This document shows positions 44,354-49,084 of a stretch of DNA of 64,000 nt, one piece after another. The notes beneath the pieces were generated by a model. It was not told where the DNA came from and did no database searches. It worked only from the letters and a program-made list of their open reading frames with translations. The DNA is from Candidatus Nomurabacteria bacterium RIFCSPLOWO2_01_FULL_42_17 (GTDB lineage: Bacteria; Patescibacteriota; Minisyncoccia; Phycocordibacterales; UBA9973). The number at the start of each line of letters is the position of its first letter. Positions within the stretch are counted from its first letter, which is position 1. The position numbers and the translations under genes were made by a program. Where the stretch lies: assembly GCA_001785985.1 (NCBI GenBank), contig MFVE01000005.1:16556-80555 (forward strand), in the 5' to 3' direction.

Positions 44354-44556
44354 ATTTACTAGAAAAATTCAGACACCCTTTCTTGGCATACTTTTTATAA
44401 AGCAATCTATCTGGCACAGCTGTGCCAGCGAACTGCTCGTCGATCAAGAAAATAATAGAAAGAGTACTTTCTTTATTTTCTAATCTCCTGCGCAAGGCTT
44501 TCTAAAAAGTACGCCTGCGACGAGTAAGTCTGAATTTTTCTAGATTCTTTGGACTC

Positions 44557-44673
44557 TAGTGCAAGCAAAAGTGTTCTCTAAAATATCGTACGGAGAGGGG
44601 CGGGTCCGAAAGTCTTAGCAAATTTCAAGCCTAAAAATTATGCGGGTATTTTAGAGAATATTTTTGCTGGAAC
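44557..44673. repeat. Left arm of 117-bp inverted repeat bracketing the fibre cassette
   Basis: Reverse complement of 47741-47857 with 2 mismatches over 117 bp. Contains an internal 13-bp inverted repeat (TTCTCTAAAATA…TATTTTAGAGAA). Confidence 0.9.
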
Positions 44674-44676
44674 ATT

Positions 44677-47223
44677 TTAAATTTCTGGAGCGGGTTCTGT
44701 GGATTCAGAGTCCTCAACTACATCAGCCTCTGGTGCAGATGCTTCTTCCGATTCGGGTTCAGGTTCGGGAGTTACTTCAGGAGTAGATTCAGATTCCTCC
44801 GTCTCAGACGGAGGCGTTACCTCTGCATCAGAAACTTCAGAAGTTTCATCAGCCGGCTCGTCCACCGTCTCTTCCGCTACAGGCATTTCTTCATTGCTTT
44901 CTTGCTCAGAAGCCTGCCCTGTACCAGAGCTCTGCTCTTGGTTCGGGGAATTTCCATCATTTCCTAACATAGCATCCAGCTGACTTCTAGTATAGCAAGA
45001 AGTGCCGTTTGCATCTTTCAAACAAACTTCATCTAGAGTGGCCTTTTCTGCAAAGATATTTGTAATCCCATTCCCCACATCCCCCATCCAAGCAGTGAGT
45101 TTGGCATAGACATTGTCAAAGAAAGCAGTGACGAAAGATTGGTTAGATGAGCCTTCGAGCGGAGTGATGGTGCCAGAGATGGCGTTTAGGTTTAGATTGA
45201 GTTCATCTAGTTTGGTATTCGTCGCTTGGAGACCTAGCACCATATAGCCCAGAGTGTTCACAGGGTTCACGATGGTGCCTTTGTAGTGCATGGCCCAGGG
45301 TGCTTCATCTGCCATGACACCGACATATTCTGTGATGGTGTCTCCGGTTCCCATGCCTGGTTTGTAATGGAATTTATATATTTTGGTATTGAGGATTTGA
45401 GTGAGAGCTTCATTTGGATCATCTACTGTGCTAATGACGTCCTTTAATTCACGGGAAGAGGCAGCCGATGCCCAGGAAGTGATGCCGTCTCCTCCTGCAT
45501 CGGTGAGCTGTTGACCAGCAGAGCCTACTGCAGTGGGTAAGGTTAGAGTCCAGGTGCCAGCCGCTGCGGCTGTCTGCATTGTGACTACTCCAGATGTTCC
45601 TCCTGCTAAAGACATAGTACCTGCTCTGGAACCTGCTGTACCTAATGTAAGTAATGCGACCGGAGAATTATTTCCAATTCCGATTACTGCGTCTGTGTCT
45701 ACAGTGGTGCCAGTGGCATTTACGTTTAGGCCAAAAATTGTGTTGCCGATGACGAGCTGGTTGGAAGTTGTAGCCGAGGGAGCGTCAACATCATAACCTA
45801 TGATGAGATTATTAGAACCAGAAGTAATGGCATCACCTGCTCCTAAACCAATCGCAATATTATTATCCCCCGTCGTCACTGCCGTCAGAGCGTTGTATCC
45901 AAAAGCAGAGTTGTCATCTCCGCCGTTTGAGGTGTCAAGAGCGAGAGAACCGAAAGCGGAGTTGCGGGTGCCGGTTGTTTCTGTTGTCAGAACATTATAA
46001 CCAAAAGCAGAGTTATTGTCGGCGGTGGTATTAGCGTCAAGCGCCAAAGCTCCAAAAGCTGCATTTTGAGTGCCGGTTGTGTTGACACCCAAAACGTTAT
46101 AGCCAAAAGCGCTGTTGTTGTTGGCTGTAGTATTGGCACTAAGCGCAAAAGCTCCAACAGCTGTATTTTGAGTGCCAGTGGTGTTAGCATTAAGCGTAAA
46201 TGATCCGAAGGCTGAATTATTGTTGGCGGTGGTATTAGCACTAAGCGCTAAGGATCCAAATGCGGAATTTCTAATTCCAGTAGTATTAGCGCCCAAAACA
46301 TCGGGGCCAAAAGCTGCATTTTGAGTGCCAGTGGTGTTAGCGGTTAAAACATTATACCCAAAGGCAGAGTTTAAACTACCAGTGGTGTTGGCATCAAGTG
46401 CGAAAGATCCAAAGGCCGAGTTTGAACCACCGGTGGTGTTGGATATTAAAGCGTTATACCCGATCGCCACATTATCATCTCCCGTAGTGATAGCTGTGCC
46501 TGCATCAGCACCAACCGCCGTATTTCTTAATCCACTTGCAGCTGTAAGAGAATCAAGTGCGGTGCTTCCAAGAGCAGTGTTGCCATCGCCTGCAGAAGTT
46601 TGAGTAAAACCTGTAAGTGTTGCTCCATTCGGGATGGTGAGAGTTCCAGTGCTGGAGGTGATGGTGAGGCCGTTGATACTTGTAGCTGTGGCAACTCCAA
46701 GAACTGGAGTGACCAATGTCGGAGAAGTAGCTAAAACCAAAACCGTGCCACTGCCTGTGGTCGTCATTTCTCCGAGAACGCCAGCGTTGTTGTAGAGAAC
46801 TCTGCCGGATGTACCGCTGGTAATGGAAGTGGTGCCTACTGTGAGTCCGGTACTTAACGTCGCCCAAGTGAGTACTCCACTCCCATCCGTCTGCAGGTAT
46901 TGGCTAGCAGTACCGTCATCTGTGGGAAGAGTTAGAGTATATGTGCCAGCGATAGCAGCTGGTTGAATGATGATTTCACCAGAGGTACTGCCAGTGAGAG
47001 TGAGAAAATCTGTGGTGACTTCTGCTGCCATAGACTTGGCAAGACTTTGGACGTTGCTGTCGATTGAATTTAATGTTCCATTGAGTTGAGCGTCGAAGAA
47101 AGCTCGGGTGACGAATTGAGAGGGGTTTAGATTATCTGCCCCCCCCCCTCGGTCCTGCTGGACCTTGAATTCCCTGAGGGCCCATTGGTCCCTGGGGTCC
47201 TTGAGGTCCAGCGACGTAAACAA
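44677..47223 (-). CDS. Phage-tail-fibre-like surface protein with Gly/Asn-rich NTTGxxNxAFG repeats and C-terminal intramolecular-chaperone (Peptidase_S74/endosialidase chaperone) domain plus acidic tail. Probably the 3' part of a gene fused to 47132-47443 via a G10 tract.
   Basis: More than 12 tandem repeats (…NTTGTQNAAFG…). Ser-Lys dyad motif SSRELKDVIS…DDPNEALTQILNTKIYKFHYK typical of auto-cleaving tail-spike/fibre chaperone domains. The annotated Met start is probably not real. Confidence 0.75.
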   Translation of the reverse strand: MFTSLDLKDPRDQWALREFKVQQDRGGGADNLNPSQFVTRAFFDAQLNGTLNSIDSNVQSLAKSMAAEVTTDFLTLTGSTSGEIIIQPAAIAGTYTLTLPTDDGTASQYLQTDGSGVLTWATLSTGLTVGTTSITSGTSGRVLYNNAGVLGEMTTTGSGTVLVLATSPTLVTPVLGVATATSINGLTITSSTGTLTIPNGATLTGFTQTSAGDGNTALGSTALDSLTAASGLRNTAVGADAGTAITTGDDNVAIGYNALISNTTGGSNSAFGSFALDANTTGSLNSAFGYNVLTANTTGTQNAAFGPDVLGANTTGIRNSAFGSLALSANTTANNNSAFGSFTLNANTTGTQNTAVGAFALSANTTANNNSAFGYNVLGVNTTGTQNAAFGALALDANTTADNNSAFGYNVLTTETTGTRNSAFGSLALDTSNGGDDNSAFGYNALTAVTTGDNNIAIGLGAGDAITSGSNNLIIGYDVDAPSATTSNQLVIGNTIFGLNVNATGTTVDTDAVIGIGNNSPVALLTLGTAGSRAGTMSLAGGTSGVVTMQTAAAAGTWTLTLPTAVGSAGQQLTDAGGDGITSWASAASSRELKDVISTVDDPNEALTQILNTKIYKFHYKPGMGTGDTITEYVGVMADEAPWAMHYKGTIVNPVNTLGYMVLGLQATNTKLDELNLNLNAISGTITPLEGSSNQSFVTAFFDNVYAKLTAWMGDVGNGITNIFAEKATLDEVCLKDANGTSCYTRSQLDAMLGNDGNSPNQEQSSGTGQASEQESNEEMPVAEETVDEPADETSEVSDAEVTPPSETEESESTPEVTPEPEPESEEASAPEADVVEDSESTEPAPEI

Positions 47224-47443
47224 CAGGCTTTGTTGTGTTAGAGGAAGTGGGAGGTGCAGGAGGCGTAAGAATAGCAGGTGTTGGGACTGTCTTTACATAA
47301 TTCCTGAAGGCAGTGAGAAGCTCTGCGCTAGTAACAGCTTGTACTTTAACCGGAGAGAAGCTAAAAACAGAAAAAACCAAGATAAAAAATCCTAGTAATA
47401 TCTTTACTGACAGAAATTTTTTCCTGAATTCTTTTTGAATCAT
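47132..47443 (-). CDS. Signal-peptide + collagen-like (Gly-X-Y) N-terminal module of the fibre protein; terminates just after a G10 tract (frameshifted relative to 44677-47223)
   Basis: MIQKEFRKKFLSVKILLGFFILVFSVFSF (signal/TM) …GPQGPQGPMGPQGIQGPAGPRGGGR*. One fewer G would fuse it in frame to …ADNLNPSQFVTRAFF… of the fibre ORF. Confidence 0.65.
   Translation of the reverse strand: MIQKEFRKKFLSVKILLGFFILVFSVFSFSPVKVQAVTSAELLTAFRNYVKTVPTPAILTPPAPPTSSNTTKPVVYVAGPQGPQGPMGPQGIQGPAGPRGGGR
47139..47148. repeat. Homopolymeric C10/G10 tract at the junction of the collagen-like and fibre ORFs
   Basis: ctgCCCCCCCCCCtcgg is the longest G/C homopolymer in the window. Its length sets the reading frame between the two ORFs. 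Confidence 0.9.
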
Positions 47444-47446
47444 TTT

Positions 47447-47677
47447 TTATTTCAAGTTTTTTTCTATAATATCTACCCTCGTTTTTAGTTTGTTATAGTC
47501 TTCATATTTGACTTTGTTTAAAGACATATCGTCAAGCCTTCTATTTATCCCTCCAATATGATAAATCAAATTATTTTCAACTCTGGCCATATTTCTACTT
47601 GCTTCTTCAAAACCATTGGCAACCATAATTGCTAATTTATCAACGGTCATTTTTTTATTTTTTACGTCCTTCTTCAT
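47447..47677 (-). CDS. Hypothetical 76-aa protein, first gene of the fibre cassette
   Basis: ORF about 60 nt downstream of the right inverted repeat. Predicted helical/coiled-coil. No recognisable motif. Confidence 0.4.
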   Translation of the reverse strand: MKKDVKNKKMTVDKLAIMVANGFEEASRNMARVENNLIYHIGGINRRLDDMSLNKVKYEDYNKLKTRVDIIEKNLK

Positions 47678-47740: not shown

Positions 47741-47857
47741 GTTCCAGCAAAAATATTCTCTAAAATACCCGCATAATTTTTAGGCTTGAAATTTGCTAAG
47801 ACTTTCGGACCCGCCCCTCTCCGTACGATATTTTATAGAACATTTTTGCTTGCACTA
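47741..47857. repeat. Right arm of 117-bp inverted repeat bracketing the fibre cassette
   Basis: See 44557-44673. Lies in the 5' leader/promoter region of the cassette operon. Confidence 0.9.
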
Positions 47858-47878
47858 GTCTGCGACGAGTTTGTAATT

Positions 47879-49084
47879 TTACCCCCACAAGTCCCAAATC
47901 ATTCCAGCAATATTTCTAGGCTTGCCTTCGAGAGCATAGTAATGCAGATCGATAAAAGGCAGGGTGTTGCATTCAATGATGCCCCATTTCTGAGAGGATT
48001 CTTCTTTGGTCGGATCAGGAATGATGCAATCAAATCCCACTACAGGCAGGCTCACTATTTTCTCCGCTTTTTCTAAAATAGGAATGAAGCTCGGGTGCAG
48101 ATCATCTATCATCTCGACAGTTTTGCCCCCAAAAAGTCTGCCGATCCTGTGCGTCAAAGACAGAGATACCCCTTGCGGTAAAATATCATCAAGCTTAAAT
48201 CCCGAGCGCAAAATATGATCGCATAATTCTTTTGAAATACGTATCGGTTCGACCCGGCTGTGACGATTTTTATCTTTTTCAATAATGAGCTCTCGGATTG
48301 TTTTCTTGCCATCCCCTACTAGAGTCGGAGCATGCCCTCGATAAAATCCAGCGAGAACTCCCCCCACAAAGGTCGCTCGACAGACACTGCCCTGCAAATG
48401 CTCTTCGACGATCAAACAAGGACAGATCGCTCCGGCTATCCGCAACCCTTCTTGAAACTGCTCTAAGGTATGAATATTAGTGACAGTATGTCTGCCCCGA
48501 GAGCCCACCCGCGGTTTGACGATTATGGGTTTTTGAAGCTTGGAAAATATTTCTCTGATAGTTTTACTTTTATTTTTCGGACTGAAAAAATTAAAATCAA
48601 AATAAGCTGGGATTGGGAGATTGTGCTTCTTAAATTCTCGCTTCATGATGACTTTATCATCCCAATTTACTCGCATCTCGGGAGATTCCGGCCTGGTCGG
48701 GATACTTTCAAAATAAATATTCCGGCCGTTTAATCTAGCGCGATAAAAATCTAAGGGTTTATTTAAAAATATCACTTGTTCCATCAGGATTCCCCTCTTT
48801 TTCGCTTCTTCCCAGATGATCCTAGAACGGAAACTGGCCGAACGCTCTATATCCGGAGAAAATTTAGCGAGTTTGAAAAAAGCGAAAGTTCTAAATAAAA
48901 ATTTGGGAAAGGAATCGGCAAAATCTTTTACAAAAAATGGAACGTATTTTATAAACTTTTTCAAATAATTATCTAAGGTGACGGAAACCACGCTCTCCAA
49001 AGCAGAAAGAGCGTGGTTGATCGGAGCATCAGCGCAATACGAACAAGAGCCTTCTTTGATATGAGGTTCAGAGACTGACAACAC
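47879..49084 (-). CDS. ATP-grasp-fold protein (RimK/cyanophycin-synthetase-like ligase)
   Basis: 401 aa whose central region (…IIVKPRVGSRGRHVT…LIVEEHLQGS…) matches an ATP-grasp nucleotide-binding pattern. Confidence 0.5.
   Translation of the reverse strand: MLSVSEPHIKEGSCSYCADAPINHALSALESVVSVTLDNYLKKFIKYVPFFVKDFADSFPKFLFRTFAFFKLAKFSPDIERSASFRSRIIWEEAKKRGILMEQVIFLNKPLDFYRARLNGRNIYFESIPTRPESPEMRVNWDDKVIMKREFKKHNLPIPAYFDFNFFSPKNKSKTIREIFSKLQKPIIVKPRVGSRGRHTVTNIHTLEQFQEGLRIAGAICPCLIVEEHLQGSVCRATFVGGVLAGFYRGHAPTLVGDGKKTIRELIIEKDKNRHSRVEPIRISKELCDHILRSGFKLDDILPQGVSLSLTHRIGRLFGGKTVEMIDDLHPSFIPILEKAEKIVSLPVVGFDCIIPDPTKEESSQKWGIIECNTLPFIDLHYYALEGKPRNIAGMIWDLWG

What the first reader, a model, noticed from the sequence alone, without database searches (positions are those of the whole stretch)
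47139..47148. G10 homopolymer sets the reading frame between a collagen-like N-terminal module and the fibre body
The 103-aa ORF (signal peptide plus GPQGPQGPMGPQGIQGPAGPRGGG) stops 2 codons after a 10-G run on the coding strand. The long fibre ORF is open across the same run in another frame. With 9 Gs (or 12) the two fuse into one secreted collagen-like/tail-fibre protein of roughly 950 aa. This is the classic slipped-strand contingency switch. It is the only G/C homopolymer of 10 or more in the 64 kb.
Basis: seen in the sequence. Interest (0 to 1): 0.75.

Follow-up and report, generated by a model that had tools for sequence, protein, structure and literature searches.

The report
Poly-G frameshift splits a surface fibre gene
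A run of ten G's splits one gene for a secreted, collagen-stalked surface fibre of an ultra-small groundwater bacterium into two pieces, probably a familiar on/off switch caught "off", though switching itself could not be shown.

Summary
C10 on the + strand (G10 on the coding strand) lies at 47139-47148 and is the only G/C run of 7 or more in 64 kb. A 103-aa ORF (leader plus seven Gly-X-Y triplets) stops two codons after it. The fibre frame is open across it. Nine or twelve G's give one ORF of 921 or 922 aa.

The window comes from Candidatus Nomurabacteria RIFCSPLOWO2_01_FULL_42_17. An intact 1116-aa paralogue from the same population (P0158) has leader, collagen triplets and body in one ORF. 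At the DNA level the window differs from it by a 10-nt insertion exactly at the tract. The two ORFs are therefore one gene carrying one G too many.

Switching was not shown. All four available assemblies carry G10, and raw reads were out of reach.

- Best reading (about 0.5): a hypermutable poly-G tract acts as a phase-variation switch on one member of a family of at least three modular surface fibres, seen here in the OFF state.
- Rivals: a recent plain frameshift pseudogene, a homopolymer miscount, or ribosomal/transcriptional recoding.

The mechanism is classical. I found no earlier report of it in candidate-phyla-radiation bacteria. In passing: a 118-bp inverted repeat brackets the whole fibre operon.

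The parts
47139..47148 (-). G10 homopolymer (C10 on the + strand). It is the frame-setting tract. Relative to the intact paralogue it is part of a 10-nt insertion.
47132..47443 (-). 103-aa ORF, the 5' part of the fibre gene in the OFF frame (GenBank OGI95367.1, A2917_02260). It has a Sec-type leader (residues 1-36, about 47336-47443; read by eye, not tested), a conserved VTSAELLTAFRNYVK motif, a Pro/Thr-rich linker, seven Gly-X-Y triplets (47147-47209), then GGGR and stop.
44677..47139 (-). Fibre body in the other frame, 820 codons from the tract to the stop. The frame is open back to a TTG at 47223. The first ATG is at 47031 (the 784-aa product that gene callers report). The 36 codons between the tract and that ATG are conserved with the paralogue at the protein level.
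45950..46440 (-). Tandem 51-nt (17-aa) repeats of the type NSAFGxxALxANTTGxx. They form the repetitive shaft that matches phage virion-structural and tail-spike PHROGs and thousands of 'tail fiber domain-containing' proteins.
45301..45459 (-). Sub-threshold Peptidase_S74 (intramolecular chaperone of endosialidase/tail fibres) match, fused residues 662-714. The sequence SSRELK lies just upstream of the matched stretch. A predicted helical stretch and an acidic Pro/Glu-rich tail follow, down to 44677.
47447..47677 (-). 76-aa ORF of unknown function, first gene of the operon. A TATAAT box lies 8 nt before its ATG. Its stop lies 3 nt before the ATG of the 103-aa ORF.
47741..47858 (.). Upstream arm of a 118-bp inverted repeat (98% complementary to the other arm). 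The arm is itself a long hairpin.
44556..44673 (.). Downstream arm of the 118-bp inverted repeat. It ends 3 nt from the fibre stop codon.

Best explanation
The 103-aa ORF and the 784/848-aa ORF are one gene. It encodes a secreted surface fibre of a Nomurabacteria (candidate phyla radiation) cell. Its parts are a Sec leader, a Pro/Thr linker, a short collagen-like triple-helix stalk, a repetitive tail-fibre-like shaft and a C-terminal S74-like folding/auto-cleavage module.

A G10 tract sits at the stalk-body junction, about 11% into the gene. In the sequenced allele it holds one G too many. Translation therefore ends after a 103-aa stub and the body has no leader: the OFF state.

A G/C run of this length is an intrinsic hotspot for slipped-strand mispairing during replication. 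Cells with G9 or G12 should arise at high frequency and make the full 921/922-aa fibre (ON), and these can revert. The tract thus works as a phase-variation (contingency) switch on one of at least three paralogous fibres with different middle modules.

Shown: the tract, the frame geometry, the single-gene architecture, the family, and the OFF state in four assemblies.
Inferred: tract-length heterogeneity, reversibility, selective value, and the role of the fibre (probably attachment to host cells or surfaces).
For: - Tract and frames.
- Intact paralogue with the same N-terminal layout in one ORF. Continuous protein alignment across the junction. A 10-nt insertion at the tract relative to the paralogue.
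- The 36 codons between the tract and the first ATG are conserved as protein, so this frame must be entered from upstream.
- 820 codons downstream remain fully open.
- The tract is built from rare AGG and GGG codons. It is a length outlier in a genome otherwise short of G/C runs: none of 7-9 nt where 2.3 runs of 7 or more are expected.
- It lies near the 5' end of a surface-protein gene that belongs to a multi-copy modular family. That is the typical setting of contingency loci in Campylobacter and Neisseria (PMC8355987, PMC3786947) and of the collagen-like Scl2 of S. pyogenes (PMC3022705).
- G10 is reproduced by four assemblies made with different assemblers, so it is unlikely to be an assembler artefact.
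Against: - No tract-length variant was seen. The window, ERZ28563625, ERZ27254763 and ERZ4903072 all carry G10. These may share samples or reads, and consensus sequences hide minority alleles.
- The intact paralogue has no homopolymer at the homologous site.
- It is the only such tract in 64 kb plus about 20 kb of further sequence from this population, so there is no sign yet of a genome-wide contingency repertoire.
- A run this long arises by chance in roughly 2-4% of composition-matched windows.
- I found no precedent for this kind of switch in CPR bacteria.
Confidence: 0.5

Rival explanations
1. Plain, recent frameshift pseudogene. One of several redundant fibre paralogues was knocked out by a +1 slip in a G-rich junction. 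The allele is fixed, any reversion has no selective value, and the gene is on its way to decay.
For: - All four assemblies carry the same OFF allele.
- At least two other paralogues exist that could cover the function.
- The paralogue lacks any tract.
- No other long G/C tract was found nearby.
Against: - 820 downstream codons have no stop or second frameshift.
- The N- and C-terminal modules remain 86-94% identical to the intact paralogue.
- A G10 run stays physically hypermutable, so revertants must arise whether or not they are selected (general knowledge of G/C tracts, PMC8355987).
- The tract uses rare codons, which a random lesion does not explain.
Confidence: 0.22
2. Homopolymer miscount. 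The true tract is G9 (or G12), the gene is a normal intact 921/922-aa ORF, and G10 is a systematic sequencing or consensus error.
For: - Removing one G restores the frame and the match to the paralogue exactly.
- Long G runs are error-prone on sequencing platforms (general knowledge).
- The assemblies may derive from the same or overlapping read sets. One is labelled with the Rifle biosample SAMN03842437.
Against: - Four assemblies from at least two assembler types (the original 326-kb scaffold and two k141 MEGAHIT-style contigs) agree on G10, while differing from each other by SNPs elsewhere.
- Illumina consensus errors at a 10-mer are uncommon at normal coverage (general knowledge, not tested here).
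Confidence: 0.13
3. Programmed recoding of the G10 allele. The full-length fibre is made from G10 mRNA, either by a +1 (or -2) ribosomal slip of tRNA-Gly on GGG GGG or by RNA-polymerase slippage on the run. The result would be a fixed ratio of 103-aa stub to fibre.
For: - The geometry allows it. A GGG-to-GGG re-pairing one base forward gives exactly the G9 product, and two bases back gives the G12 product.
- The stop follows two codons later.
- The run could pair with CCCCUCUC 13 nt downstream.
Against: - There is no canonical +1 site. The 0-frame codons after the run, GGC and AGA, are the commonest Gly and Arg codons, so no 'hungry' codon or stop sits in the A site at the slip.
- The downstream fold is no better than shuffles, z = -0.17.
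- This organism almost never uses Shine-Dalgarno sequences (2 of 42 genes), so an SD-like stimulator is unlikely.
- The paralogue needs no recoding.
- Transcriptional slippage is documented mainly for A/T runs (my recollection, not tested).
Confidence: 0.08

Closest known systems
Poly-G/C contingency loci of Campylobacter, Neisseria and Haemophilus (for example hmbR and the capsule/LOS/flagellar-modification genes)
   Same: An intragenic G/C homopolymer of about 8-12 nt lies near the 5' end of a surface-related gene. Changes of one or two bases toggle between the full-length protein and an early stop. Most loci are OFF in any one genome (PMC8355987, PMC3786947, PMC5084427).
   Different: In those organisms switching is shown experimentally, and tracts occur by the dozen per genome. 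Here a single tract is seen, in an uncultured CPR bacterium, with no length variant observed.
Streptococcus pyogenes Scl2 (SclB) collagen-like surface protein
   Same: A secreted bacterial collagen-like surface protein whose translation is set by slipped-strand mispairing in a coding repeat just after the start. The OFF alleles give a short truncated product lacking the functional regions (PMC3022705).
   Different: Scl2 uses pentanucleotide (CAAAA/AACAA) repeats before the collagen region and has an LPXTG anchor. Here a mononucleotide tract lies after the collagen triplets, and the cargo is a tail-fibre-like shaft with an S74-like C-terminus.
Phage contingency loci and poly-G tracts in phage genes
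   Same: Hypermutable repeats causing reversible frameshifts have been reported in phage genomes (PMC12633550). Poly-G tracts are discussed for Campylobacter phages (PMC10877375). The body here resembles phage tail-spike and virion proteins.
   Different: This locus is chromosomal. It lies among rpoB, gyrB, ligA, a two-component system and cell-envelope genes, with no phage genes nearby.
'Tail fiber domain-containing' / Peptidase_S74 proteins of Bacteroidota and CPR bacteria, some with collagen repeats
   Same: The same repeat shaft, with hits at E down to 1e-138 and most carrying PF13884. Single-ORF examples with leader, collagen, shaft and an S74-like motif exist, for example L092.
   Different: None of the relatives inspected is split at the collagen-body junction or carries a long G tract there.
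Hypervariable PTD-repeat gene of a Gracilibacterium (CPR)
   Same: The one case I found of slipped-strand-type hypervariation in a putative extracellular protein of a CPR bacterium (PMC6851277).
   Different: That variation is in-frame, in the copy number of 9-mer repeats. It is not an ON/OFF frame switch at a homopolymer.

Membership tests
Homopolymeric-tract contingency (phase-variable) locus | A G/C homopolymer of about 7-8 nt or more inside an ORF or promoter | tested here: met
   G10 at 47139-47148 inside the coding region
Homopolymeric-tract contingency (phase-variable) locus | Tract-length changes of one or two bases toggle between a full-length and a truncated product | tested here: met
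   In silico, 9 or 12 G gives 921/922 aa and 10 or 11 G stops at codon 104/106. The frame offset is confirmed against the intact paralogue.
Homopolymeric-tract contingency (phase-variable) locus | Tract-length polymorphism within or between populations | tested here: inconclusive
   Four assemblies all carry G10. Consensus contigs cannot show minority alleles. The JGI contig scan for any tract length found nothing, not even the locus itself.
Homopolymeric-tract contingency (phase-variable) locus | High-frequency, reversible switching of the phenotype | not testable with these tools
   Needs reads, cultures or reporters.
Bacterial collagen-like protein (Pfam PF01391 Collagen) | Uninterrupted Gly-X-Y repeats recognised by the family model | tested here: not met
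   Seven perfect triplets (GPQ GPQ GPM GPQ GIQ GPA GPR) are visible. Even so, Pfam reports no family for the 103-aa ORF. The NCBIfam Lcl adhesin match is 20 bits against a cut-off of 500. The region is collagen-like in sequence but too short for formal membership.
Peptidase_S74 (PF13884) C-terminal intramolecular chaperone of tail fibres/endosialidases | Match to the family model above the gathering score | tested here: inconclusive
   18.1 bits, E = 0.0035, against a cut-off of 22, at residues 662-714. The paralogue gives a similar score and is named a Peptidase S74 domain protein by UniRef. Most shaft homologues carry PF13884. The AF2 single-sequence model was unusable, pLDDT 36, and there was no PDB sequence hit.
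Peptidase_S74 (PF13884) C-terminal intramolecular chaperone of tail fibres/endosialidases | Autocatalytic Ser...Lys dyad at the cleavage site | not tested
   The sequence SSRELK (Ser and Lys five residues apart) is present. My recollection of the endosialidase motif is only a lead; no alignment to characterised members was made.
Trimeric autotransporter adhesin (the name JGI gives many homologues) | C-terminal YadA-type beta-barrel membrane anchor | tested here: not met
   No YadA anchor or any other Pfam family besides the S74 hit was found in the fused protein. The C-terminus is instead an acidic Pro/Glu-rich tail.
Programmed +1 ribosomal frameshift site (prfB-like) | A slippery P-site codon followed by a stop or rare codon, with an SD-like stimulator at fixed spacing | tested here: not met
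   The A-site codons after the run are common (GGC 34% of Gly, AGA 25% of Arg). The stop is two codons beyond the run. SD use is nearly absent in this genome.
Invertible DNA segment (inverton), considered for the 118-bp inverted repeat | Inverted repeats flanking a promoter or gene so that inversion uncouples them, with both orientations present in populations | tested here: not met
   The arms flank the whole operon, but the likely promoter (a TATAAT box 8 nt before the ATG of the 76-aa ORF) lies inside the segment. All assemblies have the same orientation. No recombinase gene was noticed among the neighbours that were scanned.

The most novel reading that the evidence does not exclude
An ultra-small candidate-phyla-radiation bacterium, presumed to depend on other cells, runs a bet-hedging system for its attachment apparatus. 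It keeps a family of modular collagen-stalked fibres that share N- and C-terminal cassettes and have swappable middles. Gene-conversion patches occur between copies. At least one copy is switched on and off by a hypermutable poly-G tract, and the switched operon is packaged between 118-bp inverted-repeat hairpins that could aid cassette exchange or insulation. This would be the first simple-sequence contingency locus described in the CPR/Patescibacteria.
Probability: 0.2. Interest if true: 0.6.

Novelty: new member of a known kind. Interest (0 to 1): 0.4.

Why it matters
CPR/Patescibacteria make up a large share of bacterial diversity and most cannot be cultured. How they attach to hosts or surfaces, and how they vary their surface, is largely unknown. 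A phase-variable fibre gene would be a simple genetic handle on that question. Tract-length ratios could be read directly from existing metagenomic reads across samples. They would show whether these organisms use the same contingency-locus strategy as host-adapted pathogens.

There is also a practical point. The public annotation splits this gene into a 'collagen-like protein' of 103 aa and a leaderless 784-aa hypothetical protein. That hides a 921-aa secreted fibre. Similar homopolymer splits may be under-recognised in genomes assembled from metagenomes.

Tried and rejected
- Scan of JGI metagenome contigs for the flanks with any tract length of 6-16: no hit, not even the locus itself, so uninformative.
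- Cluster look-ups of the 784/848-aa products to find 921-aa members: these sequences are not in the protein collection.
- Genome-collection scan with the N-terminal 278 aa: no orthologue with the same leader, only shared domains.
- Second homologue search with the first 196 aa: only short proteins sharing the 'GSTSG..QPAA.AGTYTLTLPTDDGTA' module or generic collagen.
- Other G/C runs of 8 or more in 76 fetched loci: they lie in unrelated contexts (poly-Gly/Pro coding, non-fibre genes).
- Frameshift-stimulating RNA structure downstream of the run: not better than shuffles.
- Promoter and terminator scan between the tract and ATG 47031: nothing above the shuffle expectation.
- 'No Shine-Dalgarno before ATG 47031' as an argument against internal initiation: dropped, because only 2 of 42 genes here have one.
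- AF2 model of the C-terminal 220 aa from a single sequence: pLDDT 36, not used, and no fold search was run.
- PDB sequence searches: no hits.
- Rfam on the locus including the 118-bp hairpins: no hits.
- The eight SNPs in one assembly (L001) as evidence of selection: rejected, because they form a patch identical to the paralogue, meaning gene conversion or an assembly chimera.
- The inverted repeat as a second ON/OFF inversion switch: judged unlikely, because the promoter appears to lie inside the segment and all assemblies share one orientation.
Full report
**Observation.** The + strand has C10 at 47139-47148, which is G10 on the coding (-) strand. It is the only G/C homopolymer of 7 or more in the 64-kb window; the next longest are four runs of 6. 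The window has 41.7% G+C. A first-order Markov model expects 0.027 runs of 10 or more, and 2.3 runs of 7 or more where one is seen. Seven of 300 second-order simulations reach 10, and 4 of 100 dinucleotide shuffles give two G9 matches. The run is therefore an outlier at roughly p = 0.02-0.04, in a sequence that otherwise avoids G/C runs.

**Reading frames.** The 103-aa ORF (47443..47132, -) ends CCG AGG GGG GGG GGC AGA TAA. The long frame is open from 47223 to 44677. Rebuilding the gene with 9 or 12 G gives one ORF of 921 or 922 aa. With 10 or 11 G it terminates at codon 104 or 106.

**Source and setting.**
- The 103-aa product is GenBank OGI95367.1 (A2917_02260) of Candidatus Nomurabacteria bacterium RIFCSPLOWO2_01_FULL_42_17, on a 326-kb contig.
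- The surroundings are chromosomal: rpoB, RNase R, SMC, gyrB, ligA, a type IV pilus ATPase, FtsH, RecG, a GT4 glycosyltransferase, an alpha/beta hydrolase, a PAP2 protein, an ATP-grasp enzyme and a histidine kinase/response regulator pair.
- No phage genes are nearby, so this is a cellular gene and not a prophage tail fibre.

**One gene, not two.** The best database match, P0001, is from the same genome (A2917_01120). It reads MGPQGIQGPRGPSGNVDTSNFVTRAFFDAQLNGTLNS..., with collagen triplets and body in one frame. Its N-terminus is missing only because its 7.7-kb contig starts there.

Its 90% cluster holds a second member, P0158. This protein has 1116 aa and comes from ENA assembly ERZ27254763, which also contains the window's locus. 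It is the full-length version:
- leader MVTKKTCAKLLKRRLKTLGLSSFFALSFFLFSTDASA;
- ITSADLLNAFRNYVKP (the window has VTSAELLTAFRNYVKT);
- a Pro-rich linker;
- GSPGLRGPMGPQGIQGPRGPSGN;
- then the body, all in one ORF.

The fused reading of the window aligns with it at 86% identity over 116 residues straight through the junction. The single 3-residue indel falls at the tract. At the DNA level the window has a 10-nt insertion relative to the paralogue exactly at the G run: paralogue GGTCC|ATCAGGTAAT, window GGACC-GAGGGGGGGG-CAGATAAT. Ten is not a multiple of three, so one G fewer or two more keep the frame.

The 36 codons between the tract and the first ATG of the body frame (47031) are conserved as protein. 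The only other in-frame start is a TTG at 47223, inside the collagen ORF. This frame is therefore meant to be entered from the collagen frame.

**The protein.**
- The N-terminal 36 residues look like a Sec signal peptide: a basic n-region, a hydrophobic core and VQA|V. This was read by eye and not tested.
- Seven Gly-X-Y triplets follow a Pro/Thr-rich linker. That is too few for Pfam Collagen, and there is only a weak Lcl-adhesin match.
- The body has a 17-residue NSAFG..ANTTG repeat shaft, seen as 51-nt tandem repeats.
- The shaft matches PHROG virion-structural and tail-spike families at E = 2e-37 to 4e-24.
- It also matches more than 5,000 proteins, many named 'tail fiber domain-containing' or, loosely, 'trimeric autotransporter adhesin', and most carry PF13884.
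- The protein has a sub-threshold Peptidase_S74 match (18.1 bits against 22), with SSRELK just upstream of the matched stretch, followed by an acidic Pro/Glu-rich tail. No YadA anchor is present.
- The same genome holds at least three such fibres sharing the terminal modules but with different middles: the window's gene, P0158 with an LVIVD beta-propeller, and a copy of more than 1376 aa on contig Ga0155678_13.
- The roughly 150 nt after the junction are nearly identical between the window and P0158. One assembly carries a 33-nt patch of paralogue sequence in the S74 region. Either the copies exchange sequence or they confuse assemblers.

**Is the extra G real, and does the tract switch?** The locus is present in three further assemblies: ERZ28563625 (labelled SAMN03842437), ERZ27254763 and ERZ4903072. 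All carry G10 and call the same 103-aa and 784-aa products. They differ from the window by 0-8 substitutions elsewhere. G10 is thus reproducible across assemblers and is probably the majority allele. Whether the read sets are independent is unknown.

No G9 or G12 allele was found, but the tools could hardly have shown one:
- the JGI contig scan did not contain the locus;
- the protein collection lacks the body protein;

Indirect points in favour of a maintained switch:
- The tract is spelled with rare codons. AGG is 9.8% of Arg and GGG is 16.7% of Gly, so Arg-Gly-Gly-Ala as G9 is expected about 0.3% of the time.
- It lies 11% into a surface-protein gene.
- The 820 downstream codons are intact.
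- A G/C run of this length is a replication-slippage hotspot in every bacterium studied (PMC8355987, PMC3786947, PMC5084427).

Points against:
- The paralogue has no tract.
- No other long G/C run occurs in the window or in about 20 kb of additional sequence from this population.

**Recoding alternative.** Geometrically, a +1 slip of tRNA-Gly on GGG GGG yields the G9 product and a -2 slip yields the G12 product. Against this:
- the codons after the run are the commonest for Gly and Arg;
- the downstream RNA folds no better than shuffles, z = -0.17;
- Shine-Dalgarno sequences are nearly absent here, 2 of 42 genes, so a prfB-like stimulator is unlikely;
- the paralogue needs no such device.

**Verdict.** The sequence feature and the single-gene interpretation are established. 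The claim of a 'classic contingency switch' is the most likely mechanism (about 0.5) but is unproven. The rivals are a recent plain pseudogene (about 0.22), a homopolymer miscount (about 0.13) and recoding (about 0.08).

The mechanism itself is textbook. The closest parallels are the poly-G loci of Campylobacter and Neisseria, and the collagen-like Scl2 of S. pyogenes, which is switched by coding pentanucleotide repeats (PMC3022705). The new element would be the lineage. My literature searches found no report of simple-sequence phase variation in CPR/Patescibacteria. The nearest case was an in-frame hypervariable repeat gene in a Gracilibacterium (PMC6851277). I rate it a new member of a known kind, of moderate interest. 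It is cheaply testable by counting tract lengths in existing reads.

**Seen in passing.**
- A 118-bp inverted repeat, 98% complementary, has arms at 44556-44673 and 47741-47858. It brackets exactly the 3,067 bp holding the 76-aa ORF, the collagen ORF and the fibre body. It occurs nowhere else in the window or in the paralogue loci. Each arm folds into a long hairpin, z = -3.4, and there is no Rfam match.
- The likely promoter, a TATAAT box 8 nt before the ATG of the 76-aa ORF, lies inside the segment, and all assemblies share one orientation. An inversion switch is therefore unlikely. Paired terminator or insulator hairpins, or remnants of a mobile cassette, fit better.
- Three other assemblies break 165-257 bp outside the downstream arm. 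This is unexplained.

Noticed in passing
window 44556-44673 and 47741-47858: A 118-bp inverted repeat, 98% complementary, brackets exactly the 3,067-bp fibre operon (76-aa ORF, 103-aa collagen ORF, fibre body). There are only two copies in 64 kb and none in the paralogue loci. Each arm is itself a roughly 27-bp-stem hairpin (RNA fold z = -3.4). There is no Rfam match. The promoter seems to lie inside the segment, so the arms are probably terminator/insulator hairpins or a cassette remnant rather than an inversion switch.
   Followed up: partly
window 44299 and 44391 (ends of contigs ERZ28563625 scaffold_10358, ERZ27254763 k141_659668 and ERZ4903072 k141_2222038): Three independent assemblies all break 165-257 bp outside the downstream repeat arm, just past the PAP2 gene, whereas the window's scaffold continues. 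The cause is unknown (strain variation, a coverage drop, or a rearrangement).
   Followed up: no
L079 4001-7351; L083 6-4136; L082 1-334: The same genome or population has at least three paralogous fibres. They share near-identical N-terminal (leader/collagen/first domain) and C-terminal (S74-like plus acidic tail) modules but have different middles: the NSAFG repeat shaft, an LVIVD beta-propeller, and a double-length shaft. The short contigs carrying the paralogues start inside family-shared sequence.
   Followed up: partly
L001 5044-5076 (corresponding to about window 45368-45400): One assembly differs from the window by eight substitutions within 33 nt, and these are identical to the paralogue P0158/L079 sequence. 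This is either a gene-conversion patch between fibre paralogues or an assembly chimera.
   Followed up: partly
window, gene starts throughout (for example 47677, 24791, 53755, 38516, 15311): Only 2 of 42 genes have a Shine-Dalgarno-like motif. Many have a TGnTATAAT-type -10 box ending about 6-9 nt before the ATG. This suggests mostly leaderless or very short-leader mRNAs in this Nomurabacteria genome.
   Followed up: partly
window 47110-47150 (- strand): On the mRNA the G run can pair with CCCCUCUC 13 nt downstream, forming a local hairpin with the stop codon of the 103-aa ORF in its loop. The fold of the wider region is not better than shuffles.
   Followed up: yes
window 47879-49084 (-): The gene directly upstream of the fibre operon encodes a 401-aa ATP-grasp enzyme. 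It resembles the C-terminal half of cyanophycin synthetase and glutathione/N-acetylglutaminylglutamine synthetases (E about 1e-36), far below the family cut-offs. It sits next to a two-component system.
   Followed up: no
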